Assembly (NCBI GenBank): GCA_016928395.1
Contig: JAFGKV010000147.1
Span: 82,977-146,976 of the forward strand
Source: Candidatus Fermentibacterota bacterium
Lineage (GTDB): Bacteria > JAFGKV01
Direction of reading: 5' to 3'
DNA: 64,000 nucleotides
Shown here: piece after piece, positions 8,311 through 49,774 of the stretch
Numbering within the stretch: the stretch's first letter is position 1
Layout of the letters: every line of letters begins with the position of its first letter
The notes under the pieces: model-generated
What the model was told of the DNA's origin: nothing
What the model saw: only the letters and a program-made list of their open reading frames with translations
Database searches by the model: none
Translations under genes and position numbers: made by a program

Positions 8311-8411
8311 ACCACCTTCCTTTCGATAGGGCGATCCAGACACAGCGCCAGAACCCTGGCACTCGCCGGGCTCGCATACCATTCGATTCCCACGGCGACG
8401 CGCCTATGGAT

Positions 8412-10982
8412 TCATGCCGTGGGTTCCACCGTGATGGCAACCCTGCAGTTCTTGAGAAATCCTCCCGCCCTATCGGCACGGTCAATGAGCAGTGCGTCCT
8501 CCCGGGAGACTACCACATCGGATCTGTTCTTACCCGTTGCCTCGATAGCCTTGACCACCAGAGGATTCGAACCGATGACACTCACGTGTTTTGTTCGGGC
8601 GGCCTCGGGAGTGGCAGCAAACCGGGTCAGCCCGCCCAGATTCAACTGCACGCTCCGAGAGGCCTTGGAATCGCCGTAGACCTCTTCGCCATCAGTCGAG
8701 AAAACCCGGGACTTAGTGGCCGGCCGAACGCCAAGGTACGCAGCATCCACGATGAGGCCGGTATAGGGTTCCTTACCCAGTTCGACGACCCGCGTCACAC
8801 TGGCTGCCGGCACCGGCATCGCCGAGCCGGGAGCGGACCTCAGCGAGTCCCGGAGTGTCTGTACCGCGCGGGCGGCGGCGGCCGCCTGCTCCATGGCTCG
8901 GGCCACATCGTCGCGGGATGCCCCATCGGTCCTGACGAGCTTTCGCATGGCCGCGGCTTCGGTCTCCGCAGTCGCGGCTCGTCCCTCCAGGGCAGCCACA
9001 GCAGCCTGGAGTGTCTGGGTCTGCGCCAGGCTCCTTTTCAAATCCGCGACCAAGGCGGTCACTTCCGGGGAGGGGGCACGGCTTCCCGTCTCCACGGCCT
9101 TTGTGGCCAGGGACATGGCGGCCATGGTCTCCCGCTCCAGCTCGGTCTGCCGGGCCCTGCTGGAAGCCAACTCCTCGGCCAACCGCTGGGTCTGGGCAGC
9201 CAAGGCCTGAATCTGGGCATCGCGCTGGGCTGCCGATGTCGTGGCGGCACTCTCGGTTGCCAATCGCGCCTGGGAGAGCTGCCGTTCCAACGCCACGGCC
9301 TTTTCCCGCGCAGCCTTGGCCTCGTGCGACGCCTGGCGGGCTTCGGCTACGGCCTGGGCTAGCGCCGCATTGTCTTCCTCTTTCAGACGGGACATGGCCG
9401 ACGTCGTCTGCGCTTCGAAGGCGCTCTGCTTCTGCCGGGCCGACGCCAACTCATCAGCGAGCCGCTTCGTCTCAGCCGATAGACGGGCCATCTCAATTTC
9501 TCGTTCTTGAGCAGGTTTCGAGGAGAGCGTGTCCACGGCGTTTCGGGTGTCCTGCAGTTGTCGTTCTAGCCCATCGGCCCGTTCCCTGGCCCGAAGCGCA
9601 TCATCCGCGGCCTGGCGGGCTTCCGCCAGGGCCTCGGCTGCTTTGTCTCCGGAGCCCGCCGCGGCCATGGCGGTCGTGGTACCCTTTTCGAATTGGGTCT
9701 CCAATTGTACCTGCCTCTGGCGCGTGGCTCCCAATTCCTGGGCAAGGCGCTGGGTTTCCGCGGCCAGCCTCACCATCTCAACGTCTCTCCCGGCGGCTGA
9801 TCGGGCCGTCAGGCTGTCGATAGCCAAGCGTGCCTCGCGAAGCTGCCGTTCCAGGGCCACTGCCTGCTCCCTGGCGTGGCGCGCCTCCTGGGCGGCCTGA
9901 TGGGCTTCGGTGAGAGCTGCGGAGGCCGCCGAATTGTCTGTGGCCAGGGCCGACTGGGCCTGGGTCAAACGTGTGAGCGCCAGCTCATTGTCCCGCCGCA
10001 ATCGGTCCGCTTCAGACCGGGCTGCCTCCACCTGCAGCGCCGCATCCTGGGACTTCTGTAGCATGTCGGCTACCTGGCGAGCCTGTTCTGTGGCCGAGGC
10101 GCTGGCTGCGCGGGCCTCATCCGCCGCGGTCTGGGCTTCGGCTGCGGCGTTGGCCAAACGGCCGGCGATCTCCCGGGCCTCCTGGGCCGCAGCCTGGGCC
10201 TGGCGCGTCTCATCGGATGAGGCCGCCTGAACCTGGCGGGCCTGGGCCTCGGCCGCGGAGCGGGCTACCTCGTCCGCAGCCTTGCGGGCCTCTTCGGCGA
10301 TGCGAAGGGCCGCGGCGGCTTGCTCCAGTGCCCGCGTGGCGGTCTCTCCGTCGCGCGAAGCGGTGATGGCGGCACGGGAGTCCTGGGCGGCCTGGGTTGC
10401 CTGTTGCACCAACGTTTCCAAGCGTTCGGCGCGCTGTGTGGTCTGCGCCAGCTCCGCCTGGGCACGCTCAAAGTCGGCGCGAAGCTTGGCGATCTCCGGG
10501 GCCACGGACGGCGCGGACGCGTGCTGCACCGCGGCGGCGCCGAGGCCCCGGGGACCAAAGATCATGACACCCAACTTCACCCTGACCAGCGGCGACCCGT
10601 CGGGCATGGTGACAGTGTCCTCGCTGATGATCCGGGCGTTCTTGATGAGGCCGTTCACCGCGGTGCGCAGTGTCGTGTTGGCGATTACCTCATCCTGGAA
10701 GGTATTCGAGGAACTCACATGAAGGCCGTGCACCGTCTCCGCCAGCTTCTCATAGGCTAAGGCGCGGGCGGCCTTGATCGCCATGGTGTAGCAGTGGCCC
10801 TGGTTCACGGCGAGGGTGGGATCGCAGGTCGCTTCTCCGACGACCTCCACATACCCGTTCTCCCAGTCTACCGTGGCGGTGTAGTCGGCACCCTGGTCTA
10901 TGTGCCTCAGGGCCGAAGCCTCCTGCGACGAGGCCGCAGTCGCAAGAAGGAGGATCAGACCGCTTACGATTTCATGCCGCAT
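8412..10982 (-). CDS. 856-aa LPP20-like protein with ~500-aa Ala/Gln/Arg-rich coiled-coil repeat region and conserved C-terminal domain
   Basis: Signal peptide; N-domain VDWENGYVEVVGEATCDPTLAVNQGHCYTMAIKAARALAYEKLAETVHGLHVSSSNTFQDE...DGSPLVRVKL (LPP20). Long heptad-like low-complexity segment with three ~90-aa repeats. C-terminus GLIVDAAYLGVRPATKSRVF...PLVVKAIEATG...FLKNCRVAITV. Confidence 0.7.
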   Translation of the reverse strand: MRHEIVSGLILLLATAASSQEASALRHIDQGADYTATVDWENGYVEVVGEATCDPTLAVNQGHCYTMAIKAARALAYEKLAETVHGLHVSSSNTFQDEVIANTTLRTAVNGLIKNARIISEDTVTMPDGSPLVRVKLGVMIFGPRGLGAAAVQHASAPSVAPEIAKLRADFERAQAELAQTTQRAERLETLVQQATQAAQDSRAAITASRDGETATRALEQAAAALRIAEEARKAADEVARSAAEAQARQVQAASSDETRQAQAAAQEAREIAGRLANAAAEAQTAADEARAASASATEQARQVADMLQKSQDAALQVEAARSEADRLRRDNELALTRLTQAQSALATDNSAASAALTEAHQAAQEARHAREQAVALERQLREARLAIDSLTARSAAGRDVEMVRLAAETQRLAQELGATRQRQVQLETQFEKGTTTAMAAAGSGDKAAEALAEARQAADDALRARERADGLERQLQDTRNAVDTLSSKPAQEREIEMARLSAETKRLADELASARQKQSAFEAQTTSAMSRLKEEDNAALAQAVAEARQASHEAKAAREKAVALERQLSQARLATESAATTSAAQRDAQIQALAAQTQRLAEELASSRARQTELERETMAAMSLATKAVETGSRAPSPEVTALVADLKRSLAQTQTLQAAVAALEGRAATAETEAAAMRKLVRTDGASRDDVARAMEQAAAAARAVQTLRDSLRSAPGSAMPVPAASVTRVVELGKEPYTGLIVDAAYLGVRPATKSRVFSTDGEEVYGDSKASRSVQLNLGGLTRFAATPEAARTKHVSVIGSNPLVVKAIEATGKNRSDVVVSREDALLIDRADRAGGFLKNCRVAITVEPTA
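9100..9960 (-). repeat. In-frame tandem protein repeats (~270 bp x3) inside the coiled-coil gene
   Basis: Three ~90-aa units (A(E/Q)AR(H/Q)A.EQAVALERQL(R/S)(E/Q)ARLA...ET(Q/K)RLA(Q/D)ELA..RQ.Q.E.Q). Coordinates approximate. The repeats generate many spurious plus-strand ORFs. Confidence 0.55.
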
Positions 10983-15442: not shown

Positions 15443-17284
15443 CTACTTCAAAGGCGCAGAGAATGTCTCCTCAATCAGATGCAGCACATTCTGAGGAAGC
15501 TCACAGGCAAGAAACTCCTTCACATCACGAGCTGACTTTTCCGACTTCTGCGCCCGATTGAGCGAGGCCCGGCTTATCCGGAATCGACAGGCGTGGTCAA
15601 CAGCGATGATTTCCGCGAATTCGGCGGCCTGCCGGAGGCGCTGCAGCGATATCGTCAGCGGAAGGAAGAACTCACCGTTGGCGGCGACGCGCAACGGCAG
15701 CGAGGTCTCAACCGGTGGTGCCTCGAGAGGGGGCTGAAGCGCACGGATGTAGAGCACGTTGGCTTGATCCCGGGCCATGTCGGCCCGTTGACTCCACCAG
15801 ATCGTGGTGGCAAGGCCGGCAAGGAGAGGAGAGGCTGAGTGCTCCGGGGAATCGAGTATCTCCGAAATGGGCGCCAGATCCGGTGCGGTGGCAAGGAGGC
15901 GACGAAAACCCGCAATCCCTATGAGATAGCCCGAAAGACTGGCCACGGGAACCCAGGCCTTCATGGTGGATGTCAGCTCAATAAGATAGCTGCGCAGCCT
16001 GCCGACCAAATGAGTCATCGGTCCCGGCGAAGCGAGGCGACAGGGGCACGATCTGCTTTCGTCCCATGAGAGCAAGGTAGGGAGTTGCGCCACCGCGATC
16101 TGAAACAGCGCACGGGGACCCCGGGCCATGAGATCCTCGGCCTCCGCCGACGGCACAATGACCGGAGATCCGCGTTCCATTGTGACCTGGAGCCAGCCGC
16201 AATCCCAGGACACCGCCAGCAGGAAGCGCTGGTATGGCTGCTGAAGAGCCAACAGTCTGGAAAGCCTATCGACATGGATCATGCTGGGGGTGCTGTCCTT
16301 GGTGGACGGGGGAGGCATCAGGGAGGTCGCGACAAGCAGGCGCAACAGGTCGAGAGCGAAGTCTCCAGGCGGAGTTACCCTGACCAAGGATGTGTCGCGT
16401 GCCGCACGGGAGGGTCGGCTGAATCGCTTAAACAGGCGGGGGATCGCACGGGCTACGGGCTTGTCTGCCTCAAGGGAGATCGAAATCTCCCTCAAGGCAG
16501 AACTTGGATCCAGATCCTTCGGGCGGGCAAGTCCGAGAAGCAAGATCTCCTGAAGCGGGTTGTGACTCCCCGTTCCATGGTAGCGCATATACCGTGGCCA
16601 CGAGAACACCTCCGGCGAGCCTGTTCCTAGCAGGATCGCCAGCCGGGCGGCAGGCTGAGGCGAGGGCGACGACTGCAGTGTTTCCATGGCGAGCAACTGG
16701 CGCAAGGAAAGTGCGGGGATCTGCGAAGCCCACGATCGCCTGACCTGATAGTAGGTGCCGGCCAGGGCATGCAATGCGCGCAGGTACGAGGCTGACTCAC
16801 GGACAGTCTGCCGTGGAATGACCCCCTGTGCCATGTAGGCGACCATGGCCTGCGCCAGGCTCCCTTGCAGAGTCCACGCAGCATCGGAGAGGAAGGCATA
16901 CTCCAGTGGCATCAGAGGCTTGTCGTGTGTATCGATACGAAACGCAAGCCCCAGCTCCACAAGGCGTTGACCGAAGCTCTCACCCAGCGACGGGGGCGAG
17001 AGTTCGAGAAGGAGCTTCTGGAGCGCAAGGCGGTATTGGTTGCGTTCTGATTCGGTGAGCTGCCGAACCTGAAGGAGAATCCACTCCCTACGCCCAAGAA
17101 AGCGACACAGCTTGTCCTGAAGCATGAGCCCCCGAAAGTGATCGCCCCTGGTAAGGCCGATCCCCAGATACTGCGCCATATGCTCCACGAGGGCAGGGCT
17201 GGATGAGAGTATCTGTGCCATCAGTATGGGAGGGCGCAGTCGGCGGGCATTCGTGGCGGTTTTCGGATCAGTTCGCGCGCTCAA
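15443..17284 (-). CDS. Hypothetical 613-aa Leu/Arg-rich protein, 4-nt overlap with (downstream of) cphA
   Basis: Long ORF with codon usage matching neighbours and translational coupling to cphA (ATGA overlap). No recognisable motif. Confidence 0.6.
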   Translation of the reverse strand: MSARTDPKTATNARRLRPPILMAQILSSSPALVEHMAQYLGIGLTRGDHFRGLMLQDKLCRFLGRREWILLQVRQLTESERNQYRLALQKLLLELSPPSLGESFGQRLVELGLAFRIDTHDKPLMPLEYAFLSDAAWTLQGSLAQAMVAYMAQGVIPRQTVRESASYLRALHALAGTYYQVRRSWASQIPALSLRQLLAMETLQSSPSPQPAARLAILLGTGSPEVFSWPRYMRYHGTGSHNPLQEILLLGLARPKDLDPSSALREISISLEADKPVARAIPRLFKRFSRPSRAARDTSLVRVTPPGDFALDLLRLLVATSLMPPPSTKDSTPSMIHVDRLSRLLALQQPYQRFLLAVSWDCGWLQVTMERGSPVIVPSAEAEDLMARGPRALFQIAVAQLPTLLSWDESRSCPCRLASPGPMTHLVGRLRSYLIELTSTMKAWVPVASLSGYLIGIAGFRRLLATAPDLAPISEILDSPEHSASPLLAGLATTIWWSQRADMARDQANVLYIRALQPPLEAPPVETSLPLRVAANGEFFLPLTISLQRLRQAAEFAEIIAVDHACRFRISRASLNRAQKSEKSARDVKEFLACELPQNVLHLIEETFSAPLK

Positions 17285-19935
17285 AACGACATTTCCCCGA
17301 TTCCGGCGGCGGTAGTGCCCGGCGTATTCTGCATGTGCCGACGATTCGCACGGAGCACGTCGAGCGCGATATCCCCGCGGGCGGTCATCACCAGCACCAC
17401 ATCACCCGTGCGGGCGGCATCCAGTGCCTGCACCATCGCTGATTCCTCGCTTTCATACCTTTGGATGTGCTCTGGCGGCACCCCGACCATGGACAGACCT
17501 CTTGCCAGCAACTCCGTGGTACTCCCAGGCTCACGACCCCGCCGGTACCGGGGATCCTCGTACAGATAGGTCTCGTCAGCCACGGCCCCGAGGATGCTGC
17601 CGATGGCGATGATATCCTCGTCCCGGCGATCACCGACCGCGTTCAACACGAAGAGCTTTCTCCGGAATTGGCTTCGCCGAAGGTAATCGACCAGCGCCTC
17701 ATAGGCGGCAGGGTTGTGGGCATAGTCGATCATGACCCAGAAATCGTCTCGGGGTACCAGGTTCATCCGGCCGGGCAACTGGGTGAGAGAAGGGAAAAAG
17801 GAGAGTAATCCCTGACGAACAGTATCAACCTTGACTCCCAGACTGAATGCAGCAAGAGAGGCCGCCATGACATTCTGGATGTTGAACTCAGCAGCGCCGC
17901 CAAGGGTGACCGGGATGTCGGCCGCCTTTGCCAGCGGGTGTACGGTTCCGTCAGCAACAAGAGTCACATAGCCGTTTTGATAGGTAGACGCGGTTCTCCC
18001 GCGCTCAATGTGATGGGTGAGGACGTCACTCTCGGGGTCCATAGAGAAATATGCGATGTTCTCAGAGCAATGTCGTGCCATATCCCGGCAATACGGATCG
18101 TCTGCGTTGAGTACCGAGTATCCACCGGGCCGAACCACTTCCGCCACGATGGACTTCAGAAACGCCAGATCATCCAAGGTCTTCACGTTACCCAGATTCA
18201 AGTGATCCGCGCACACATTCAGAACGATTCCGACATCGGCGTTCTTGTACCCAAGACCATCCCGCAAGAGCCCACCCCGGGCGGTCTCCAGCACGGCGCA
18301 GTCGATGGTGGGATCGCGGAGTACCACTCCTGCGGAGTGGGGTCCGCTCATGTCGCCCTTCACCATCAGACGTCCACCGATGTAGATGCCATCCGTGCAT
18401 GTCATACCCACCGCATACCCGGCGGTCTTCATGATGTGTGCCGCCAAGCGCACCGTGGTGGTCTTGCCATTGGTGCCGGTGACGGAGATGATTGGGATGT
18501 CGGTTTGCGAGCCCGGAGGGAACAGCATATCGAGGATGGGTGCCGCCACATTCCGGGGCTTCCCCTTAGCAGGGGCGAGATGCGCCCTGAGGCCGGGCGC
18601 GGCATTCACCTCGATCACTGCGCTTCCAGTTTCGGTGATCGGCACGTCTATCCGAGGGGCCAGTATATCGATGCCGGCCACGTCCAGCCCAATGATCCTG
18701 GCCACTCGTTCGGCGATGAACCGATTCGTGGGGTGCAAGTCGTCCGTCACATCCTCGGCAGAGCCTCCGGTGCTGAGGTTTGCCGTCAGCTCAAGATTGA
18801 AAACCTCGCCCTCGGGGAGTATCGCCTCCATGGTGTAGCCAGCCTGGGTAAGGAGTCGATGGGTGGTCTTGGAGACGACCAATCGCGTCATTTCCCTTTC
18901 GTGGCCGATACCACGACGGGGATTGGTGTTCTCGATCTCGATGAGCCGCTCGATGGAGTGGATGCCGTCTCCAATCACATGGGCGGGATCGCGGCGCACC
19001 GCGGCAATGAACCGTCCTCCCACGACCAGCAGCCGGAAATCGACGCCGCGGATCATCTGCTCGACCACGATTTCCCGCGAGTACTCCTTCGCCTTGGCAA
19101 ACGCAATCTCCATCTCTTCGTCGCTGGAGATACCGATGGTCACGCCTTTTCCATGGTGGCCGTCAAGTGGCTTCACAACCACTGGGTACCCTATCCACGC
19201 GGCATCCTCCTTGGCAGCCGAGATGTTCGAACACTTCGTGCCCCGGGGTACCGGAATCCCCGCATCGCGAAGCATTCCCGTGGTGAGCGCCTTGTCTCCG
19301 GCCGTCTCTACGCCGATGAATCCCGTTCCCGAGGTGATGGTCGCCTTGACGAGCTTTTGGAACCGCCCTTCACCTAGCTGGATGAGACGATAGTCGTCGA
19401 GCCGGAGTACCGTGATCCGGCGTCGTTCCGCCTCTTCGACGATAGCCGCGGTCGATGGGCCCAACCGGTTGTCGTCCAAGATAGTGAGCAAACGTTTTAC
19501 TGTGGCCTCAAGATCATAGGCCTTGCCGGCAAGGATGGCCTCCACAAGAGCCAAAGCCTCCTCGCCCGCCATGATTCCCGCCTTGTCGACCCAGTAGCTG
19601 AAGATCACATCGTACACGCCTGGCGACCCCGCATTGCGGGTCTTGCCAAAGCCGACAGGCATGTACGCGATGGTCTGGAGCTCGAGGGCGACATGCTCGA
19701 TAACGTGGGTCAGGAGAGTGCCCTCATGCATACGTTCGACAAAACCACCGGGAATGCCTTTACTGCATCGATGATCCCCCAGGCTGGGGATGCACTCCAG
19801 TAGTCTTTCCGGGAACCCGTCGAGCTCTGACGTGAAGACCTCATCGTAGTCCTCGAGGTCGATGGTCATGACTATCACGGGCCGCAAGCTGTAGTAGTTG
19901 GCGCCGTGGAGTGCCTTGATGCCCAAAGTCTTCAT
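17281..19935 (-). CDS. cphA: Cyanophycin synthetase
   Basis: 884 aa. N-terminal CphA-specific region MKTLGIKALHGANYYSLRPVIVMTIDLEDYDEVFT..., ATP-grasp core, C-terminal Mur-ligase domain (ISVTGTNGKTTT). Confidence 0.9.
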   Translation of the reverse strand: MKTLGIKALHGANYYSLRPVIVMTIDLEDYDEVFTSELDGFPERLLECIPSLGDHRCSKGIPGGFVERMHEGTLLTHVIEHVALELQTIAYMPVGFGKTRNAGSPGVYDVIFSYWVDKAGIMAGEEALALVEAILAGKAYDLEATVKRLLTILDDNRLGPSTAAIVEEAERRRITVLRLDDYRLIQLGEGRFQKLVKATITSGTGFIGVETAGDKALTTGMLRDAGIPVPRGTKCSNISAAKEDAAWIGYPVVVKPLDGHHGKGVTIGISSDEEMEIAFAKAKEYSREIVVEQMIRGVDFRLLVVGGRFIAAVRRDPAHVIGDGIHSIERLIEIENTNPRRGIGHEREMTRLVVSKTTHRLLTQAGYTMEAILPEGEVFNLELTANLSTGGSAEDVTDDLHPTNRFIAERVARIIGLDVAGIDILAPRIDVPITETGSAVIEVNAAPGLRAHLAPAKGKPRNVAAPILDMLFPPGSQTDIPIISVTGTNGKTTTVRLAAHIMKTAGYAVGMTCTDGIYIGGRLMVKGDMSGPHSAGVVLRDPTIDCAVLETARGGLLRDGLGYKNADVGIVLNVCADHLNLGNVKTLDDLAFLKSIVAEVVRPGGYSVLNADDPYCRDMARHCSENIAYFSMDPESDVLTHHIERGRTASTYQNGYVTLVADGTVHPLAKAADIPVTLGGAAEFNIQNVMAASLAAFSLGVKVDTVRQGLLSFFPSLTQLPGRMNLVPRDDFWVMIDYAHNPAAYEALVDYLRRSQFRRKLFVLNAVGDRRDEDIIAIGSILGAVADETYLYEDPRYRRGREPGSTTELLARGLSMVGVPPEHIQRYESEESAMVQALDAARTGDVVLVMTARGDIALDVLRANRRHMQNTPGTTAAGIGEMSF

Positions 19936-23119: not shown

Positions 23120-23437
23120 GGATCCTGCCTTGTGCCGTGGGTGAGCGATGGAGCGTTGCCAAACACATAAGGGTATACTGACTCGGTGCCCGATGCAACC
23201 ATTGCTTTCCCACGAGCAACCGCTCAGGCTGTTTGGGGTTTTGGATCGAGTGATGTTCGATCCAACGTGACGGACCGATGAACGAGAGGAGTCCCCGGTT
23301 CGTCTTTCGTGACTCCGTGTACGCCGGGCGCATTGAGGCTATGAGTCGTGACTAGTATGGGTAGCTTGAGGAGGACATGTGACGCAGTGTCGTGCACCAG
23401 GAGCATCCGGGGAGATTCCGTGGTAAGACGAACCCTC

Positions 23438-25771
23438 ATGGTGCGTGGCGTGGTCCAAGGAGTGGGGTTTCGCCCCACGGTGTATCGGTGTGCCCTGAGC
23501 CGGCGGGTGGCGGGGTGGGTACGGAATCGTTCTGACGGGCTCGAAATCGCCGTGGAGGGCGATGAACGAACAGTTGCCGGATTCATCAGAGACGTGATCG
23601 ATCATCCTCCACCGTGCGCTCGAGTCACGGCCGTGGAGATTGAGGATGCGGAGCCGGTTGGAGAGGAGGGCTTCACGATTCTGCCAAGCCTGACCGTCGC
23701 AGGCAATACGCTGTGCCCGGCGGATCTGGCGACCTGCGATGCGTGTTTCGGCGAACTGTTCGACCCTCGGGACCGCCGGTTCCGCTATCCGTTCATCAAC
23801 TGCACGGACTGCGGCCCTCGATTCAGCGCCGTGGTCACGCTGCCCTATGACCGGCCTTCCACCAGCATGGCGTGTTTTCCCATGTGCCCACTCTGCAGCG
23901 CTGAGTATCATGACCCGCTCAACCGGCGGTACCATGCCCAACCGAACGCCTGTGCCGAGTGCGGCCCGAAAGTGTGGCTGGTGGATGGGGCCGGACAACC
24001 TCTGGTTTCAGACGATCCGGTGGGAACCCTTGCCTCAATGCTCCGGCAGGGATTCCTGGCGGCCATCAAGGGCATAGGGGGGTTCCACCTGGCAGCCGAT
24101 GCCACCGATGAAGCCTCGGTGGCCCGCTTGCGCCGGCGAAAGGGCCGCGATGCCAAGCCGCTGGCTGTCATGGTGGCTGACCTCGAGTGGGGCCGCCGTT
24201 GCGGCGTCATTGATGACCAGGCCGAGGCGATTCTGGTATCACCGGCACGCCCCATTGTCGTGGTCGATGCCGTAATGGATGGCCCGTTGGCCCCTTCCAT
24301 CGCACCGGGGATCGGCACCGTGGGGATCATGCTGCCCTACAGCCCGATTCATCATCTTCTGTTCCGTGACCGTGCCCAGACACTGCCCCCCTTGGTCATG
24401 ACCAGCGGGAATCTGAGCGACGAACCCATCGCTATCGGCAATCGGGAGGCCATAGGGAGACTTGGGCGATGCGCCGACATCATGCTCCTGCACGATCGCG
24501 ATATCGTGGCTCGAGCGGATGATTCCGTGATGCAACACCACCGGCACGGCGCGGTGTTCATTCGCCGCTCTCGCGGCCATGTGCCAGAGCCCCTGCCCCT
24601 TCCCTCGGATATGCCGCCCTCGTTGGGTACGGGGGCCTATCTCAAGGCAACTCCTTGCCTTGTCTCGGGGCGCCAGGCGTTCCTTGGCCAACACGTTGGT
24701 GACTTGTCGACCCTGGAAGGCGTTCGGTTTCATGCTCTGGCGATCGATGCGCTTGAGAGCCTCATGCGAATCACCCCGGAGGCCATCGGGTGTGACCTGA
24801 ACCCGGATTTTCCTTCCAGTGTGTGGGCGAGGCGCCATTGTATGAGGGTTGAGCCCGTGCAACACCATCACGCCCACGTGGTAGCGGCGGGCCTGGATCA
24901 TGGCCTGGAGCCTCCCCTCTTGGGGTTGGCCATCGACGGGACTGGCCTGGGGACCGACGGTTCGATCTGGGGGTGCGAGCTTGTGCTGGCGGATCGCGTG
25001 GATTTCAAGAGGCTTGGTCATCTCCTCCCTCTCCCTCTTCCCGGAGGCGATGCGGCCGTACACGAAACCTGGCGTGTCGCGATCGGGCTTCTGCATGCTT
25101 GCTTCGGAGAGGCCGCGCAGGGCCTTCTGGAGCAGGTGCTCTGTGGCGTTGACATTGCACACAAACGGCTCGTGCTGGAGGCGGTGCATCGGGGAGCCCA
25201 CACGCCGATGCAGACGTCGTGTGGGAGGCTCTTCGATGCTGCAGCCGCCCTTACTGGCGTGTGCACTGTCGCTCGATTTGAGGCAGAGGCGGCCATGATG
25301 TTGGAGCGGGCTGCAGGATTCGGGGCATATCGCCACGCAAAGGCGCGGCCGTTTCCCATGGGGATGCTGGAAGATGCCCCCTTGGTGTTGGATCCGCGCC
25401 CCATGGTGAGGGAGCTGACAGGTCGGCTTTTGGCCGGCGATGGACCGGAGATCCTGGCCAGGAGGTTTCATGACACCATGGTTCACGGTCTTTCCGGAAT
25501 GGTCATTCGGTGTGCTTCTGGAGCCGGGTTCGACACGGTGGTTTTGACCGGAGGGTGTATGCTCAACCGTTATCTCGCGGACGGTCTTACCCGAGAGATG
25601 GAGCGGGCCGGCCTCCGGGCTTTGGTGCCACGTCGGATTCCGGTCGGGGATGGGGGCATCAGCCTGGGCCAAGCCGCAGTGGCTGGCTGGCGGTTGAGCA
25701 CCGATGAGGTTGACAGGGTTCGGGATTCGGTGGGGGCTGAGCAGGTTCGGAATCGAGCCCACGCGGGATGA
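23438..25771 (+). CDS. hypF: [NiFe]-hydrogenase maturation carbamoyltransferase HypF
   Basis: Acylphosphatase domain VRGVVQGVGFRPTVYR, two Zn-finger pairs (CDACFGEL...CTDCGPRFS; CPLCSAEY...CAECGPK), YrdC-like and Kae1-like domains. Start is ambiguous: ATG at 23438 or GTG at 23348. Confidence 0.9.
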   Translation: MVRGVVQGVGFRPTVYRCALSRRVAGWVRNRSDGLEIAVEGDERTVAGFIRDVIDHPPPCARVTAVEIEDAEPVGEEGFTILPSLTVAGNTLCPADLATCDACFGELFDPRDRRFRYPFINCTDCGPRFSAVVTLPYDRPSTSMACFPMCPLCSAEYHDPLNRRYHAQPNACAECGPKVWLVDGAGQPLVSDDPVGTLASMLRQGFLAAIKGIGGFHLAADATDEASVARLRRRKGRDAKPLAVMVADLEWGRRCGVIDDQAEAILVSPARPIVVVDAVMDGPLAPSIAPGIGTVGIMLPYSPIHHLLFRDRAQTLPPLVMTSGNLSDEPIAIGNREAIGRLGRCADIMLLHDRDIVARADDSVMQHHRHGAVFIRRSRGHVPEPLPLPSDMPPSLGTGAYLKATPCLVSGRQAFLGQHVGDLSTLEGVRFHALAIDALESLMRITPEAIGCDLNPDFPSSVWARRHCMRVEPVQHHHAHVVAAGLDHGLEPPLLGLAIDGTGLGTDGSIWGCELVLADRVDFKRLGHLLPLPLPGGDAAVHETWRVAIGLLHACFGEAAQGLLEQVLCGVDIAHKRLVLEAVHRGAHTPMQTSCGRLFDAAAALTGVCTVARFEAEAAMMLERAAGFGAYRHAKARPFPMGMLEDAPLVLDPRPMVRELTGRLLAGDGPEILARRFHDTMVHGLSGMVIRCASGAGFDTVVLTGGCMLNRYLADGLTREMERAGLRALVPRRIPVGDGGISLGQAAVAGWRLSTDEVDRVRDSVGAEQVRNRAHAG

Positions 25772-26003: not shown

Positions 26004-26171
26004 ATGCCCACCTACGATTTCCACTGCAGTTCATGCGGCAAGGACTTCAGCACAATCCTCTCCATTGCCGCCAGGGGTGAAGACGCCATTGTATGCCCCG
26101 CCTGCGGTTCCAAGAATGTCGAGCAGCAGTTCACCTCTGTGTCGGTGAAGACCGGCAAGAAGACCTGGTAG
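26004..26171 (+). CDS. FmdB-family zinc-ribbon protein (55 aa); absent from the ORF track because <60 aa
   Basis: RBS AGGAGGAAGGAG precedes the ATG. MPTYDFHCSSCGKDF...IVCPACGS is the canonical M-x-Y-x-(F/Y)-x-C-x-x-C ... C-P-x-C-G FmdB signature. Confidence 0.75.
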   Translation: MPTYDFHCSSCGKDFSTILSIAARGEDAIVCPACGSKNVEQQFTSVSVKTGKKTW

Positions 26172-26204
26172 CACCAGGGCTCATCTCTTCGGAAGGAGGC
26201 CTCC

Positions 26205-27257
26205 ATGAGAGTGCCGGCGGTCTTGCTGTTCCTGTTTTTGGCGATGTCGGTGCAGGCTGCCAACGTTTTCGTGTATGATCACGACGACGGTGCCACGCTG
26301 ACTGACCCGTTGGGTGCCGGCGTTGTCGGTACCCAATTCGCCGTGGTCCGGGCTCTGCAGGCATCAGGGCATCAGGTGACCACCTCAACAGTGCTGCCCA
26401 CGAACCTGAGCCCGTATGATGCCGTCTTTGTGCTCACCGCCTGGGGTACCGGGTGAGGTTCGTGTATCTCACTTGAGCAGGCTGCTCAAGTCACTCTTAT
26501 GAGCTACTTGGATTCCGGCGGTTCGGTGTATCTTGAAGGCGTTGAGATCGGCTACTATCACGCCCCAGGGCAAGCCTACAACTACGGACTCTGGAACTAC
26601 CTAGGCACTCTCTGGCTGGGTGATGGGAACTCCACGAACAATGTGAGCCTCGTGAAAGGTCAGAACGTGTGGTTCGGTACGGGGATGCAGTTCGGCTATC
26701 CCTACGGCCAACTCCCCGACTCCTGGGTTGACATTCTGGGCCCTGCGGGTACGGGCAGCGCGCAGCCTTTCGTTGATCAGACCAACCAGGGCCGGGTCGT
26801 TTCCTACATCCCGTCCGGCCAGCCGTGGCGTACCATTACCAGCGGGGTATGTTTCTGTGCATTCAGCGAGGATGCGCCCCTGTCTACCCAGCAGCGCCTG
26901 ATGGCGAGGATCATGGGCTTCTTGCTGGCCGAGGATGCGATTCCTCCTGCGGCTGTTGTGGACGTAACGGCCCAGGTCGTTGGAGTATCTTTGGAGCTCT
27001 CATGGGCTCCGGTCACGCAGGATTCGCAGGGTAATCCTGAGAGTATGGATTCCTACGTGGTGGAACGAGGCACCTCACCGAAAGGGAGATGGACCCCCAT
27101 CGGCGTCGCAGCGAATCCCGGATTCACCGACGGTGGTTCAGACATCGGTGATCCTGCTGTGAATAGCTACTATCGTATCAGGGCCGTCGACACCAGTGGG
27201 AATGTGGGAGCGGAAGCGCTCGCCGGCGAGTTCGACTTCGCTCTGAATACTCAATAG
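26205..27257 (+). CDS. Secreted GATase1-like (DUF4350-like) + fibronectin-III protein interrupted by one in-frame TGA at 26454-26456 (pseudogene, selenocysteine, or sequencing error)
   Basis: RBS GGAAGGAGG and signal peptide MRVPAVLLFLFLAMSVQA. The track's 26205..26456 and 26499..27257 ORFs share a frame with only the TGA between them, and the protein fold motif runs continuously across it (YDAVFVLTAWGTG-x-GSCISLEQAAQVTLMSYLDSGGSVYLEG). C-terminal FN3-like module (SWAPVTQ...YYRIRAVDTSGN). Confidence 0.6.
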
Positions 27258-40627: not shown

Positions 40628-41935
40628 TCAGGCGCCCACCACGCTGATGTCGTTCAGGAGTATCGAAGGGTCTTGGAACACGCTTCCGGTGTAGTGGAGG
40701 CCGCTCTCGACCGCGACAGCCTTTGAGAGCATGTCGTAGACATTGCCCGCCATCATGCCGTCCTTTACCCGGCCCACGATTTCGCCGTTCTCTACATACA
40801 GCCCCGGATTCAAGCCCACCGAGAGATCGCCATTGAGTATGTTGCCGGAATGGGCTCCCAGAAGACCGTGCACAATCACGCCCCGGTCGATCATGGAGAG
40901 CATCTCCTCAAAGGATTTCGCTCCCGGCTGGAAGTTGGCATAGGAGAGGCTGGGGGAGGGGCTCAGAGAGATCTTGTCTCCGCCCCACATGCCTCCTCGA
41001 AATCCCGTTCCCAGAGGTTTCTCACTCAGTTTCGCAGCGTAATCCAGGTTGTTGTAGGCGCTGGTGAACACACCGTTCTCGAAGATAGGCACCCGTCGGG
41101 TCTGCACGCCCTCGTCGTCAAAGAGCCTTCTGTCGGCGTGTGCCGTCGTGGGATCACTGATGAGAGACAGGAGAGAAGAAATGACCTGCTGCCCCTTCTT
41201 GTTCATTAGCGGCGAGATCTTCTCGTGAAAGGCCTTGGCAGAGGCAGCGGAACCCAACCTCCAGGTGAAGGCGTACAGCACATCGGGGAGCACGAGGACC
41301 TTCATTCTTCCCTCGCCTATCTTTATCTCGGGAAGAGAGTCCCTGAAGAAGCCCAACGTTCTTTTCACATCAGGTTCGTGGATAACGGCCTTTGACCTCC
41401 CACGGAAGACGTTGCCGATATCTGTGCTGGAACCGGGATACATCACCAGGCCCATTCGGTACACCTCGGAATCCTTCTGCATCAGATTCGCGCCGGAGGT
41501 ATTCCTGATGGTTATCTCGGTTGTTCCACACCCGGCTCTAAGGCTGACGATCCCCCGGGTTACTCCGCCGTAGAGGGCCTCAAGCTCCTCGATCTGCTCT
41601 CGCAGCTCGGGAAACCCCATTCCTTCGATCGTGTCATCGTATTCCTCCGTGAATTCAAGAGCGCCAGACTCAGGGAAATCGAAACCGGCTTCTACGCCGG
41701 CTTCCAGGGAAGCCAGAGCATTGTCCACAAGCTCTTCACGGTTGATCAGGTTCTTCGTGTAGGCCATTCCCGTCTTGCCGTTTTTGATCACCCTGAGCGA
41801 TACGCCGGACTGGATCGAGGCCGACACAGCATTCACCGAGCCATTGGTCTTCTCCATCTCCGTTGACTTGGTTCGAATGCCAAACACCTCAGCTCTGCAG
41901 CCGCGGCTTTCTGAGATCTCCAAAAGCTTGTCCAT
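40628..41935 (-). CDS. pmbA: Metalloprotease PmbA (TldE)
   Basis: TldD/PmbA-family C-terminal region. Its start overlaps the tldD stop by 1 nt (TAATG). Confidence 0.85.
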   Translation of the reverse strand: MDKLLEISESRGCRAEVFGIRTKSTEMEKTNGSVNAVSASIQSGVSLRVIKNGKTGMAYTKNLINREELVDNALASLEAGVEAGFDFPESGALEFTEEYDDTIEGMGFPELREQIEELEALYGGVTRGIVSLRAGCGTTEITIRNTSGANLMQKDSEVYRMGLVMYPGSSTDIGNVFRGRSKAVIHEPDVKRTLGFFRDSLPEIKIGEGRMKVLVLPDVLYAFTWRLGSAASAKAFHEKISPLMNKKGQQVISSLLSLISDPTTAHADRRLFDDEGVQTRRVPIFENGVFTSAYNNLDYAAKLSEKPLGTGFRGGMWGGDKISLSPSPSLSYANFQPGAKSFEEMLSMIDRGVIVHGLLGAHSGNILNGDLSVGLNPGLYVENGEIVGRVKDGMMAGNVYDMLSKAVAVESGLHYTGSVFQDPSILLNDISVVGA

Positions 41936-43296
41936 TACGCGCCTCCGATCACCATGGAGCGGATAAGAACGCTGGGTCCTCCGGAACCGCTCTTTATGTT
42001 CAGTTGACCCTTGCCGCATCCCCCCCGTTCGCCGAGCTGCATGGTGTTGTCCGTCGCCTCCATGTTTTTCAGGGTCTTGAACAGGTTTCCCATGATGTTG
42101 ATGTCGCGGATCATCTCCCGGATCTGGCCGTTCTTCACGATGTACCCGTACTGGGCGCCGAATGTGAAGTTCTCGCCTGAAGTCTGGCCCCCCTTGGCAT
42201 CACAGAGATAGAGCCCGTCGCCAAGCCTGCTTAACAGCTCTTCAAAGCTCATCTCGCCTTTCTCGAGGTAGATGGTCCCCATGCGGACAATCGGTTCGAA
42301 CCGGTGATCCTCGGCAACGGCGTGCCCTGACACAGGTTCACCGAATTCGGCTGCGGTCCTGCGGGAATGAAGCCTGCCCCTGAGTACGCCGCGTACCATC
42401 AGGGGAGTTCTTCTGACGGGAGTTCCCTCGTCATCATACTTGTAGAAACCAACCTGATTCGGGATGGTCGAGTCGGCGATGATTGTGACCTGTTCGCTGC
42501 CGATCGTGGCGCCCAGCGACATCTTCTCGCGAAGGGGAGGATTGTCCTCGATGATGTCAGCTTCGCTGAAGTGGCCGAAGGCTTCGTGGACGAACACTCC
42601 GGCAAGGTCGGGGTTTATTACCACATCGTATGTGCCGCCCCTCACGGGTGATGCGTCAAGAAGCTCCTTGGCCAGTTCTGCCCGTCGCAGGAATACATCG
42701 TCCCTGTCCCTGAGGGACGCCATTCCGTTGGCTCCGCCCACTGAAGCGCGGATGTTCTGGATGAGCTCGCCGCGCCGGGCAACGACCTCTCCACCGATAC
42801 TCACGGTACAGACGCGCTCTCTGATCGAGGCTCCCTCGGACGAGACAAAGAACTTCTCCCTGTCAACCTCGCTGTAGGTCATGGTGGTACTGGCTATCTC
42901 GGGTTGGGAGAGCATAATGCCGTTGTACATCTTCAACAGAGCTATCTTCTCCCCCAGGGGAGACTTCGCAGGGTCTCCGCGAAGGTCTGGCTCTACGCAA
43001 TCCTGCGCCGGCTCCACCGGTGCCAGGGACACGGTCTTCCCGCCGCCGGCCATGGCCTCAGCCCCCTGGACGGCGAGTCTGACCGCCTCCGGCACATCCG
43101 ATTCCTTGGTAACCGTGACCGAGGAGAATCCACTGTCTTTGAGGGCTCTCACCACGAAGCCATCGGTGCTGTTCGAGCCGGCGTTCTTCAGTTCAGGACC
43201 GGACATACCTACTGAGGTCTCCTTCTTCACCTCATACCGTATGTCGACGTAGTCGGCTCCTGAACCAGAGATCATGGTCTTGAGTTTCTTGAGCAT
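41935..43296 (-). CDS. tldD: Metalloprotease TldD
   Basis: SGADYVDIRYEVKKETSV N-terminal motif; HExxxH-like region FGHFSE; 453 aa. Confidence 0.88.
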   Translation of the reverse strand: MLKKLKTMISGSGADYVDIRYEVKKETSVGMSGPELKNAGSNSTDGFVVRALKDSGFSSVTVTKESDVPEAVRLAVQGAEAMAGGGKTVSLAPVEPAQDCVEPDLRGDPAKSPLGEKIALLKMYNGIMLSQPEIASTTMTYSEVDREKFFVSSEGASIRERVCTVSIGGEVVARRGELIQNIRASVGGANGMASLRDRDDVFLRRAELAKELLDASPVRGGTYDVVINPDLAGVFVHEAFGHFSEADIIEDNPPLREKMSLGATIGSEQVTIIADSTIPNQVGFYKYDDEGTPVRRTPLMVRGVLRGRLHSRRTAAEFGEPVSGHAVAEDHRFEPIVRMGTIYLEKGEMSFEELLSRLGDGLYLCDAKGGQTSGENFTFGAQYGYIVKNGQIREMIRDINIMGNLFKTLKNMEATDNTMQLGERGGCGKGQLNIKSGSGGPSVLIRSMVIGGA

Positions 43297-45255: not shown

Positions 45256-45407
45256 TACTCGGGCTCATGGGTACGGTGGTGCCGGCTCCTTTTGTGAGGC
45301 GGAAGGCGGGATTGTGTGATTGGAATCGCTTCCGGGCTGAATGGATCGGGCATCTCCCGTGGCCCTTGTCTTCTCGTGGTGATTCTGAAAGAAGGGAGAT
45401 GACACGC

Positions 45408-49709: not shown

Positions 49710-49774
49710 GGCACGCGCCTCCTGTGGTGAAGTGACTGAGGTCTCAGGTCTTCCCGAGGCCGCGGCACTGGCAT

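What the first reader, a model, noticed from the sequence alone, without database searches (positions are those of the whole stretch)
26205..27257. Single in-frame TGA followed by a SECIS-like hairpin in a secreted GATase1-like/FN3 protein: selenoprotein candidate versus fresh pseudogene
The two adjacent ORFs (26205..26456 and 26499..27257) are in the same frame, separated only by TGA at 26454-26456. The conserved fold motif (YDAVFVL…G-x-GS…LEQAAQVTLMSYLDSGGSVYLEG) runs straight through the stop, so this is one gene. The residue after the stop context reads U/stop-G-S-C, i.e. a potential U-x-x-C redox pair. From 26472 there is an inverted repeat cttgagca-GGC-tgctcaag. Its apical part (GCA-GGC-UGC) resembles the E. 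coli fdhF SECIS apex (GCA-GGUC-UGC), although it sits ~4-5 nt further from the UGA than canonical. Alternatives are a TGG/GGA/CGA to TGA nonsense mutation or a sequencing error.
Basis: partly seen in the sequence, partly recalled or inferred. Interest (0 to 1): 0.55.

Follow-up and report, generated by a model that had tools for sequence, protein, structure and literature searches.

The report
Unannotated secreted bacterial selenoprotein family
The in-frame TGA is almost certainly a real selenocysteine codon, read with the help of a conserved RNA hairpin just downstream, in a secreted protein family from poorly known bacterial phyla that databases currently annotate as truncated hypothetical proteins.

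Summary
Window 26205..27257 (+) is one gene with a single in-frame TGA at 26454-26456, followed by an 8-bp, GGC-loop hairpin at 26472-26490. Both were confirmed.

The TGA is not a fresh mutation. All 14 homologous genes for which I could read DNA carry TGA at the same alignment column. The named relatives come from Ca. Eisenbacteria, WOR-3, TA06 and Cloacimonadota, at 28-78% protein identity. dN/dS is 0.06-0.29 on both sides of the TGA, with synonymous sites saturated.

The hairpin is kept through compensatory changes and meets every constraint of the published bacterial SECIS model. A Cloacimonadota homologue has Cys at the Sec column. A Cys always lies within three residues of Sec (UxxC, CU or CxxU), which points to a selenenylsulfide redox pair. 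One distant member sits beside a NifS-SelD fusion gene.

The Cys homologue's N-terminal domain models as a class I glutamine-amidotransferase-like fold, and the C-terminal domain is FN3-like.

No Pfam or NCBIfam model matches the N-terminal domain, and nothing in a 2026 catalogue of 119 prokaryotic selenoprotein families corresponds to it.

Two things remain untested: Sec machinery (selA/B/C/D) in this genome, and the protein's biochemical function.

The parts
26191..26199 (+). Shine-Dalgarno sequence GGAAGGAGG of the gene
   Evidence: Read directly. It lies 5 nt before ATG 26205. There is no comparable site before the internal ATG 26499.
26205..27257 (+). Complete selenoprotein gene: 350 codons including Sec84, then a TAG stop
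   Evidence: One frame with a single TGA. Orthologues share the same architecture. dN/dS is 0.06-0.29 both upstream and downstream of the TGA.
26205..26258 (+). Predicted Sec-type signal peptide MRVPAVLLFLFLAMSVQA, with cleavage after VQA
   Evidence: Read from the sequence: a basic N-terminal region, a hydrophobic core and an AxA-like site. It is conserved in all full-length orthologues. No signal-peptide predictor was available.
26259..26936 (+). Class I glutamine-amidotransferase-like alpha/beta domain (residues 19-244), which spans the TGA
   Evidence: BLASTP against the Cys homologue P0125 gives 33% identity, E 1e-34, across the Sec/Cys column. The AF2 model of the P0125 domain has pLDDT 88.7 and pTM 0.89. 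Foldseek hits are GATase1-fold proteins at E 4e-7 to 4e-5 and TM 0.5-0.62.
26454..26456 (+). UGA codon read as selenocysteine (U84)
   Evidence: TGA is at the homologous column in 14 of 14 genes with DNA. Cys is there in P0125.
26463..26465 (+). Cys87 codon (TGT), the proposed partner of Sec84 in a U-x-x-C pair
   Evidence: A Cys lies within +/-3 residues of the Sec column in every Sec or Cys member. The forms are UxxC, CU, CUxxC, CxxU and CxxC.
26472..26490 (+). Bacterial SECIS hairpin: stem 26472-26479 with 26483-26490, and apical loop GGC at 26480-26482
   Evidence: Fold results are. The stem is conserved with compensatory pairs. It meets the bSECIS criteria quoted.
26937..27254 (+). C-terminal FN3-like beta-sandwich domain (residues 245-350)
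   Evidence: Profile positions 145-245 hit repeated stretches in large multi-repeat proteins. One such protein, P0024, scores as Pfam fn3 at 2.2e-26. The window protein itself has no direct Pfam hit.
26004..26171 (+). FmdB-family CxxC...CxxC zinc-ribbon gene, a conserved upstream neighbour and probably in the same operon
   Evidence: Pfam Zn_ribbon_8 at 4e-15 and TIGR02605 at 58 bits. The same neighbour is present in L001, L002 and L013.
23348..25771 (+). hypF, which is syntenic context only
   Evidence: Pfam HypF domains. The order hypF, zinc ribbon, this gene is also seen in L001.

Best explanation
This is an intact gene for a secreted selenoprotein.

**Decoding (mechanism inferred from established bacterial Sec biology).** When the ribosome reaches UGA84, the hairpin that starts 15 nt downstream recruits SelB-GTP-Sec-tRNA(Sec). 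The hairpin has an 8-9 bp stem and a G-G-C apical loop 23 nt after the UGA. Selenocysteine is inserted and translation continues to the TAG at 27255.

**Product.** The result is a 350-residue precursor. A signal peptide appears to be removed. The mature protein has a GATase1-like alpha/beta domain followed by an FN3-like domain.

**Position of Sec.** Sec84 sits in the loop between a central beta-strand (AVFVLTAW) and the following helix (EQAAQVTLMSYL). From the order of secondary-structure elements, I infer that this is one beta-alpha unit before the position of the classical GATase nucleophile elbow, which in this family carries an invariant Glu-Gly.

**Proposed chemistry (inferred).** Across the family the Sec column is fixed, while a partner Cys moves between positions -3, -1 and +3. 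I therefore propose that Sec and Cys form a reversible selenenylsulfide, making this an extracytoplasmic two-electron redox centre grafted onto a scaffold that is otherwise non-catalytic. The substrate is unknown.
For: - **TGA conservation.** TGA is at the same column in 14 of 14 genes with DNA:
  - window, L001, L002, L003, L004;
  - L006;
  - L010, L011b, L012b and L013a;
  - L015, L016a, L016b;
  - L011a.

  Named sources are Ca. Eisenbacteria, WOR-3, TA06 and Cloacimonadota.
- **Truncated database entries.** 55 cluster representatives carry the N-domain. Of these, 38 begin within about 35 profile positions after the Sec column, as expected if gene callers restart after a stop. Only 9 span the column: 1 with Cys and 8 with neither Cys nor Sec there.
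- **Cys homologue.** The P0125 cluster (18 members, Cloacimonadota) reads WCTG-C-GS against the window's W-GTG-U-GS.
- **Selection.** dN/dS is 0.06-0.29 upstream and 0.10-0.25 downstream of the TGA, with dS above 1.
- **Hairpin covariation.** In 11 tri-loop members the 7 core pairs are always paired. Four pairs show changes on both sides. One pair shows all four Watson-Crick types. No shuffle out of 500 reaches the observed covariation.
- **Selection acts on the RNA.** In the close orthologues the 5' stem changes are non-synonymous (Glu to Gly or Val), while the compensating 3' changes are synonymous Ala third positions.
[quoted passage not shown] In all 14 genes:
  - the loop is GGC, GGA, GUC, GGU, GGUC or CGUGA;
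  - the spacing is 20-29 nt;
  - the MFE of the 60-nt segment is -9.3 kcal/mol or lower. In L002 the MFE fold is an alternative structure, and its hairpin is read from the alignment.
- **Ordinary TGA stops.** TGA is the commonest normal stop in the window, 20 of 34 genes.
- **No conserved restart.** L003, L004 and L006 have no ATG where the window has ATG 26499, and the window has no Shine-Dalgarno there.
- **Link to selenium metabolism.** The L010 member lies next to a NifS-SelD fusion gene (TIGR00476, 372 bits) and near a second TGA-containing thioredoxin-like gene.
- **Several copies per genome.** One Eisenbacteria MAG has two paralogues on different contigs, each with a TGA and a hairpin.
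- **Fold.**
Against: - No selA, selB, selD or tRNA-Sec gene is present in the 64-kb window, in the 10 kb upstream of it (L014), or in the other Eisenbacteria-type loci. The rest of the genome could not be read.
- No experimental evidence exists.
- The structural model is of a 33%-identical Cys homologue, not of the window protein, and the Sec loop is its least confident part (pLDDT about 63-76).
- Placing Sec relative to the GATase elbow rests on the order of secondary-structure elements.
- The redox-pair function is inferred from motif pattern alone.
Confidence: 0.88

Rival explanations
1. Recent nonsense mutation (fresh pseudogene) or a sequencing or assembly error that created the TGA.
For: A single isolated in-frame stop is what such an event would look like in one sequence. 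Database annotations treat the gene as two ORFs.
Against: TGA is at the identical column in 14 independent genes from different samples and phyla. Flanking codons differ synonymously. Strong purifying selection acts on both sides while dS exceeds 1. None of the full-length copies has any other stop or frameshift; only L006 loses frame, in a duplicated stretch at its contig end.
Confidence: 0.01
2. The TGA is a genuine, conserved stop. Two products are made: an ~83-residue secreted peptide, and a ~250-residue protein started downstream. The hairpin would serve translational coupling, pausing or mRNA stability.
For: Gene callers find a start codon shortly after the stop in many members. The hairpin lies between the stop and that start in the window.
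Against: The downstream start is not conserved: ATG in the window, GTG further upstream in L003, and a much later ATG in L004. There is no Shine-Dalgarno before 26499. The frame is always preserved across the stop. The stretch between the stop and the putative start is conserved as protein (GSCISLEQAAQ). In the Cys homologue the stop column lies inside a single compact domain, between a core strand and its helix, so the two halves could not fold separately. The downstream part would also lack a signal peptide.
Confidence: 0.04
3. UGA is read through with a standard amino acid (Trp, Cys or Arg by near-cognate decoding, or a suppressor tRNA). The hairpin would act as a generic read-through stimulator, with no Sec machinery involved.
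For: Sec machinery was not seen in the sequence available for this genome. Downstream structures can stimulate read-through in some systems (general knowledge).
Against: The hairpin matches the specific SelB-type model, including G[G/U] at the start of a small apical loop and the right spacing, in all members. The only sense codon seen at the column in homologues is Cys, inside CxxC-type motifs, which is the classic Sec/Cys signature. A selD fusion gene sits beside one member. TGA is the main normal stop in the window, so leaky decoding would be costly.
Confidence: 0.05

Closest known systems
Bacterial selenoprotein genes with an in-ORF SECIS, prototype E. coli fdhF (consensus bSECIS model of Zhang and Gladyshev as summarised in PMC13188914)
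   Same: An in-frame UGA is followed within the coding sequence by a small stem-loop whose apical loop starts with G-G or G-U. The spacing, stem length and stability fall inside the model. The window's apex GCA-GGC-UGC resembles the fdhF apex GCA-GGUC-UGC (the fdhF sequence is from memory).
   Different: The loop is a tri-loop (GGC) rather than GGUC, and the stem has no bulged U. The UGA-to-loop spacing is 23 nt. The host protein is unrelated to formate dehydrogenase.
Thiol/selenol oxidoreductase-type selenoproteins with UxxC or CxxU motifs (Trx-, Grx-, DsbA-, TlpA-like families listed in PMC13188914 Table 1)
   Same: A vicinal Sec/Cys pair, Cys-containing homologues, and a signal peptide as in the DsbA/TlpA-like periplasmic members. 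This suggests a similar selenenylsulfide redox chemistry (inference).
   Different: The fold is GATase1-like, not thioredoxin-like. The partner Cys is not fixed (UxxC, CU, CxxU). No Pfam or NCBIfam model of those families hits the protein.
UGSC family (seleno)protein, NF041046
   Same: The identical tetrapeptide U-G-S-C occurs in the window protein.
   Different: There is no match to the NCBIfam model even at E up to 10. Other members of the present family have CU or CxxU instead, so the tetrapeptide is a coincidence of a subgroup.
[quoted passage not shown]
   Same: It is also a selenoprotein on a class I GATase fold.
   Different: Its GxUxG motif matches the classical GATase nucleophile-elbow motif GxCxG (my reading). 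Here Sec lies in the preceding strand-helix loop (inference) and is paired with a vicinal Cys. There is no HMM match.
Non-catalytic GATase1-like domains: STM3548/STM1381, the GH42 middle domain, ThuA-like proteins, the GldG/IFT52 N-terminal domain, OST48
   Same: These are the best structural matches. Non-Cys homologues give weak sub-threshold Pfam hits to ThuA and ABC_transp_aux. Like several of these, the non-Cys relatives occur in cell-surface multidomain proteins.
   Different: None of those is known to carry a Sec or CxxC loop at this position. Sequence similarity is undetectable by HMM.

Membership tests
Bacterial selenoprotein gene (Sec-UGA plus bSECIS) | In-frame UGA conserved at the same position in homologues | tested here: met
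   14 of 14 genes with DNA. 38 of 55 database representatives begin just after the column.
Bacterial selenoprotein gene (Sec-UGA plus bSECIS) | Homologues with Cys aligned to the UGA column | tested here: met
   The P0125 cluster (18 members, Cloacimonadota) has WCTG-C-GS. Only one Cys cluster was found.
Bacterial selenoprotein gene (Sec-UGA plus bSECIS) | [quoted passage not shown] | tested here: met
   Criteria are quoted and values are. For the window: GGC loop, 8-9 bp stem, 23 nt spacing, and -19.8 kcal/mol for the 60-nt segment. In L002 the hairpin is an alternative to the MFE fold.
Bacterial selenoprotein gene (Sec-UGA plus bSECIS) | Evolutionary support for the RNA structure (compensatory changes) | tested here: met
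   4 of 8 pairs have changes on both sides, and 0 of 500 shuffles reach the observed score. In the close orthologues the compensating 3' changes are synonymous.
Bacterial selenoprotein gene (Sec-UGA plus bSECIS) | selA, selB, selC (tRNA-Sec) and selD present in the same genome | not testable with these tools
   None is present in the window, in L014 or in the related loci, but only about 74 kb of this genome was readable. For the distant member L010, a NifS-SelD fusion gene is adjacent.
Bacterial selenoprotein gene (Sec-UGA plus bSECIS) | Selenium demonstrated in the protein (75Se labelling or mass spectrometry) | not testable with these tools
   This needs an experiment.
UGSC family (seleno)protein NF041046 | Match to the NCBIfam model | tested here: not met
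   No hit at E up to 10 or at E up to 0.1 for the full length.
Any of the 119 catalogued prokaryotic selenoprotein families (PMC13188914 Table 1) | Match to the family's Pfam or NCBIfam model | tested here: not met
   The N-domain has no Pfam hit at E up to 1 and no NCBIfam hit. The table was read. Families defined only by CDD or PANTHER identifiers could not be scanned. By their names in Table 1 they are thioredoxin-like, (2Fe-2S)-binding/CopZ, BtuF and Fe-S oxidoreductase families.
Class I glutamine amidotransferase-like fold | Three-dimensional similarity to GATase1-fold structures | tested here: met
   Foldseek with the N-domain model of the Cys homologue hits 2gk3, 3soz, 2d7j, 1o1y, 5dfa, 5fmr and 4e5v, at probability 1.0 and TM 0.5-0.62. 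The result is transferred to the window protein through 33% identity at E 1e-34.
Catalytic class I glutamine amidotransferases | Cys-His-Glu triad with the nucleophile at the strand-helix elbow (GxCxG) | tested here: inconclusive
   By the order of secondary-structure elements, the elbow position carries an invariant Glu-Gly and Sec lies one beta-alpha unit earlier. This is an inference: no residue-level structural alignment was available, and hhalign to HisH was insignificant. No GATase Pfam model matches.
Fibronectin type III domain (C-terminal part) | Match to the Pfam fn3 model | tested here: inconclusive
   The window protein has no direct Pfam hit. The family profile hits the fn3 repeats of other proteins.

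The most novel reading that the evidence does not exclude
This may be a previously undescribed, fairly large selenoprotein family. It has at least 38 clusters at 50% identity. The named members come from Ca. Eisenbacteria, WOR-3, TA06 and Cloacimonadota. It would differ from known families in three ways. It is built on a glutamine-amidotransferase-like scaffold rather than a thioredoxin fold. Sec lies outside the classical nucleophile elbow. The proteins carry a signal peptide, and many members carry a T9SS sorting domain. If so, these phyla would have surface or extracellular selenoenzymes with unknown redox chemistry, currently hidden by truncated annotation.
Probability: 0.6. Interest if true: 0.6.

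Novelty: new member of a known kind. Interest (0 to 1): 0.55.

Why it matters
- **Annotation.** Dozens of database entries call only the part after the TGA, for example the Eisenbacteria MUE60_02930, the WOR-3 MBN2620281.1 and the TA06 KPJ53723.1. These are N-terminally truncated selenoproteins that have lost their signal peptide and active-site loop in annotation.
- **A family absent from current catalogues.** It adds a selenoprotein family that a 2026 catalogue of 119 families and NCBIfam release 20 do not contain. It occurs in candidate phyla for which I found no papers mentioning selenocysteine.
- **An unusual fold.** Most known selenoproteins are thioredoxin-like. A GATase1-like scaffold with a moving Cys partner is a natural experiment on what a Sec-Cys pair needs from its surroundings.
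- **Exported selenoproteins.** Signal-peptide and T9SS-tailed members would put selenium chemistry at the cell surface of anaerobic FCB-group bacteria.
- **A training case.** The tight covariation of a 19-nt in-ORF hairpin is a clean example for bacterial SECIS predictors.

Tried and rejected
- **Metagenome scans.** Both scans of metagenome contigs, one protein-pattern and one DNA-pattern, found no relatives; the 3 DNA-pattern hits were chance matches.
- **Genome scan.** The genome-contig scan found only the Eisenbacteria MAG, on two contigs.
- **Word-indexed protein search.** With the N-domain alignment it recovered only close relatives.
- **Rfam.** Nothing at the gathering threshold over the window, and nothing at E up to 10 around the hairpin.
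- **Family and PDB sequence searches.** Pfam, NCBIfam and the PDB sequence search gave nothing for the N-domain.
- **Full-length Foldseek.** The search with the 778-residue model was swamped by Ig-like domains and was uninformative for the N-domain. It was redone with the isolated domain.
- **Tool limits.** The Cys homologue had to stand in.
- **Sec machinery.**
  - Pfam over about 43 window ORFs, and ARAGORN on the window and 10 loci, found nothing.
  - The 10 kb upstream of the window (L014) held no sel gene.
  - The right-edge gene was not on record, so the downstream flank could not be fetched.
- **Other candidates in the window.** A scan for other TGA-joined ORF pairs found only antisense or adjacent-gene artefacts.
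- **Literature.** Searches pairing selenoprotein or selenocysteine with Eisenbacteria, Cloacimonadota or type IX secretion returned nothing relevant.
- **Unused search.** I ran no further search on SelA/SelB, because its hits could not be tied to this genome.
Full report
**1. The observation**

- Window 26205..27257 (+) translates in one frame. The only interruption is TGA at 26454-26456. The local text is ...YDAVFVLTAWGTG-*-GSCISLEQAAQVTLMSYLDSGGSVYLEG....
- The inverted repeat cttgagca-ggc-tgctcaag lies at 26472-26490. RNAfold makes it a 9-bp hairpin inside a longer structure, at -27.7 kcal/mol for 76 nt with z = -2.35.
- Only four perfect 8-bp/3-nt-loop hairpins occur in the whole window.
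- A strong Shine-Dalgarno sequence (GGAAGGAGG) precedes ATG 26205. None precedes the internal ATG 26499.
- TGA is the commonest ordinary stop in the window, used by 20 of 34 genes. There is therefore no genome-wide reassignment of TGA.

**2. Orthologues keep the TGA**

- A search of 5.8 billion proteins with the read-through sequence returned only six hits. All were C-terminal fragments starting just after the stop column.
- I fetched the DNA of these fragments and of more distant relatives found by a full HMMER scan. A TGA sits at exactly this column in every gene examined:

| Gene(s) | Source | Motif at the Sec column |
|---|---|---|
| window, L001, L002, L004 | L001 is Ca. Eisenbacteria MAG GCA_025453925.1 | TG-U-GSC |
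| L003, L006 | L006 is a second paralogue in the same Eisenbacteria MAG | GC-U-G |
| L013a | ENA assembly, unnamed | GG-U-GSC |
| L012b | ENA assembly, unnamed | DC-U-GDC |
| L015 | WOR-3 | SC-U-SDC |
| L016a, L016b | TA06 | C-U |
| L010 | ENA assembly, unnamed | CIG-U |
| L011a, L011b | Cloacimonadota | CVG-U, CES-U |

- That is 14 of 14 genes, at 28-78% protein identity to the window.
- Neighbouring codons differ synonymously (GGG/GGT, GGT/GGC, TGT/TGC).
- Pairwise dN/dS is 0.06-0.29 upstream and 0.10-0.25 downstream of the TGA, with dS above 1. The stop has therefore been kept through saturating divergence while both halves stayed under purifying selection. This excludes a fresh pseudogene or a sequencing error.
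- 55 cluster representatives carry the N-terminal domain. Of these, 38 begin within about 35 profile positions after the Sec column. Only 9 span it.
- Of those 9, one has Cys: the P0125 cluster, with 18 members, Cloacimonadota, reading WCTG-C-GS. BLASTP to the window gives E 1e-34 and 33% identity across the column. The other eight have neither Cys nor Sec at the column.

**3. The hairpin is a SECIS**

- The six Eisenbacteria-type sequences all keep the 8-bp stem. The fifth pair is A-U in three, U-A in two and G-C in one. One U-A pair becomes U-G in L001.
- The 5' changes alter the protein (Glu to Gly or Val). The compensating 3' changes are synonymous third positions of an Ala codon. Selection is therefore acting on the RNA.
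- Adding five more tri-loop members gives alignment A7. Its 7 core pairs are paired in every sequence. Four pairs have changes on both sides, and one shows all four Watson-Crick types. No shuffle out of 500 reaches the observed covariation, and slid registers pair at only 23-40%.
- The 2026 review PMC13188914 gives the consensus bacterial SECIS constraints:
  - a stem of 4-16 bp;
  - 16-37 nt between the UGA and the loop;
  - MFE of -7.5 kcal/mol or lower.
- All 14 genes comply. The loops are GGC, GGA, GUC, GGU, GGUC or CGUGA, and the spacing is 20-29 nt. The MFE of the 60-nt segment is -9.3 kcal/mol or lower. In L002 the MFE fold is an alternative structure, and its hairpin is read from the alignment.
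- The two L011 paralogues differ by a compensatory pair in their stems (ggaAc/gUucc versus ggaGc/gCucc).
- Rfam has no matching model.

**4. Against two separate products**

- The downstream start codon is not conserved.
- The window has no ribosome-binding site before 26499.
- The peptide between the stop and that putative start is conserved.
- In the Cys homologue the column lies inside one compact domain.

**5. What the protein is**

- The N-terminus reads as a Sec-type signal peptide, MRVPAVLLFLFLAMSVQA|A. This is from the sequence only; no predictor was run.
- No Pfam or NCBIfam model matches the following ~225-residue domain.
- The tools would not accept a sequence containing the stop. 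I therefore modelled the N-domain of the Cys homologue with a 26-row alignment. The model has pLDDT 88.7 and pTM 0.89.
- Foldseek against the PDB returns class I glutamine-amidotransferase-fold proteins at E 4e-7 to 4e-5 and TM 0.5-0.62:
  - STM3548 and STM1381;
  - true GATases (2d7j, 1o1y, 7d97);
  - the GH42 middle domain;
  - the IFT52 N-terminal domain;
  - OST48;
  - a ThuA-like protein.
- Weak sub-threshold Pfam hits of a non-Cys homologue to ThuA and ABC_transp_aux agree with this.
- The Sec/Cys loop follows strand 56-62 (VIFVTLG) and precedes helix 78-89. The next strand ends in a Glu-Gly that is invariant across the family.
- From the canonical GATase1 topology (my own knowledge), that Glu-Gly occupies the nucleophile-elbow position. 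On this reading Sec sits one beta-alpha unit earlier, in the loop that in true GATases helps form the oxyanion hole. This placement is an inference. A profile alignment to HisH was insignificant.
- The C-terminal ~100 residues are FN3-like by transitive profile hits.
- More distant members replace FN3 with PKD, CARDB or choice-of-anchor domains and a T9SS sorting tail.

**6. Likely chemistry**

- In every Sec or Cys member a Cys lies within three residues of the fixed Sec column, but at varying positions: +3, -1, both, or -3.
- A wandering partner next to a fixed Sec argues for a selenenylsulfide two-electron redox couple. It argues against a metal site or an acyl-enzyme nucleophile. This is inference, and the substrate is unknown.
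- The non-Cys relatives of the domain occur in cell-surface multidomain proteins with amidase_3, NlpC/P60-like, FN3 and T9SS modules. This suggests an envelope-associated scaffold onto which the redox loop was grafted.

**7. Links to selenium metabolism**

- In L010 the family member lies directly downstream of a NifS-SelD fusion gene (TIGR00476, 372 bits).
- It is also 0.7 kb upstream of another T9SS-tailed gene with an in-frame TGA in a thioredoxin-like G-U-PYC motif, which has its own GGU-loop hairpin.
- For the window's own genome I found no selA, selB, selC or selD in the window, or in the 10 kb upstream recovered as L014.

**8. Comparison with what is known**

- The decoding mechanism is the ordinary bacterial one.
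- The protein family is not in the May 2026 catalogue of 119 prokaryotic selenoprotein families.
- It matches none of those families' Pfam or NCBIfam models. That includes the UGSC family NF041046, despite the shared tetrapeptide, and the GATase-type selenoprotein NF004836.
- NCBI records annotate only the post-TGA part as hypothetical or T9SS-sorting proteins.
- Literature searches for selenoproteins in these phyla or in T9SS cargo found nothing.

**9. Verdict**

- This is a genuine Sec-encoding UGA with a functional-looking SECIS, confidence about 0.88.
- It defines a selenoprotein family that appears to be undescribed, so I rate it a new member of a known kind.
- Interest is moderate at 0.55. 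The evidence is strong, the fold is unusual for a selenoprotein, and it corrects many annotations. However, new bacterial selenoprotein families are reported regularly, and the function is still unknown.

Noticed in passing
L010:4737-6896 (+), TGA at 4872: A second, unrelated selenoprotein candidate. It has a signal peptide, then ...VFSTSSG-TGA-PYC..., a thioredoxin-like UxxC motif, then PKD domains and a T9SS tail. A 7-bp hairpin with a GGU loop lies 20 nt after the UGA.
   Followed up: partly
L010:231-2429 (+): A NifS-SelD fusion gene (cysteine desulfurase plus selenophosphate synthetase; TIGR00476 at 372 bits). It lies immediately upstream of a family member, with an Rrf2 regulator between the two TGA-containing genes. 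This looks like a small selenium gene cluster.
   Followed up: partly
window 26004-26171 (+); also L001:1028-1195, L002:1001-1168, L013:1142-1309: An FmdB-family CxxC...CxxC zinc-ribbon gene always sits directly upstream of the Eisenbacteria-type members, 33 nt away in the window, with hypF before it. The FmdB family is itself listed as a selenoprotein family (UxxU form) in PMC13188914. A functional partnership is possible but was not tested.
   Followed up: partly
L012:92-2025, L013:1354-2873, L016:2200-4747, L011:685-4986; L005 and L006 in one MAG: The family is often present as tandem or multiple paralogues. Each copy has its own TGA and hairpin, and the Cys partner position differs between copies (for example GG-U-GSC next to DC-U-GDC).
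   Followed up: yes
L012:2124-4406 (-): A Peptidase_C25 (gingipain-like) gene lies next to the tandem pair in L012.
   Followed up: no
L006:10730-11032: The 3' end of the second Eisenbacteria paralogue repeats a DDAVPPA stretch and loses frame at the contig end. This is probably an assembly artefact rather than biology.
   Followed up: no
Public records: MUE60_02930 and MUE60_01890 (Eisenbacteria), MBN2620281.1 (WOR-3), KPJ53723.1 and KPL10319.1 (TA06), MBN2460625.1 (Cloacimonadota): The deposited annotations call only the part after the TGA, naming it a hypothetical protein or a T9SS sorting-domain protein. The signal peptide and the Sec loop are missing from the protein records.
   Followed up: yes
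window 8412-10982 (-), 15443-17284 (-), 45156-46988 (+), 6297-8382 (-): Several large ORFs have no Pfam hit at E up to 1e-5. Some lie among TPR, amidase_3 and CsgG-like envelope genes.
   Followed up: no
window 17281-19935 (-); 40628-43296 (-); 47973-49802 (-): Cyanophycin synthetase, a TldD/PmbA pair and a GH44 glycoside hydrolase. These are ordinary genes, noted only for context.
   Followed up: no
L014 (Logan SRR13394437) and L011 (same run): A contig carrying an identical copy of the window's first gene comes from the same sequencing run as the Cloacimonadota-type locus L011. That sample therefore holds both branches of the family.
   Followed up: no
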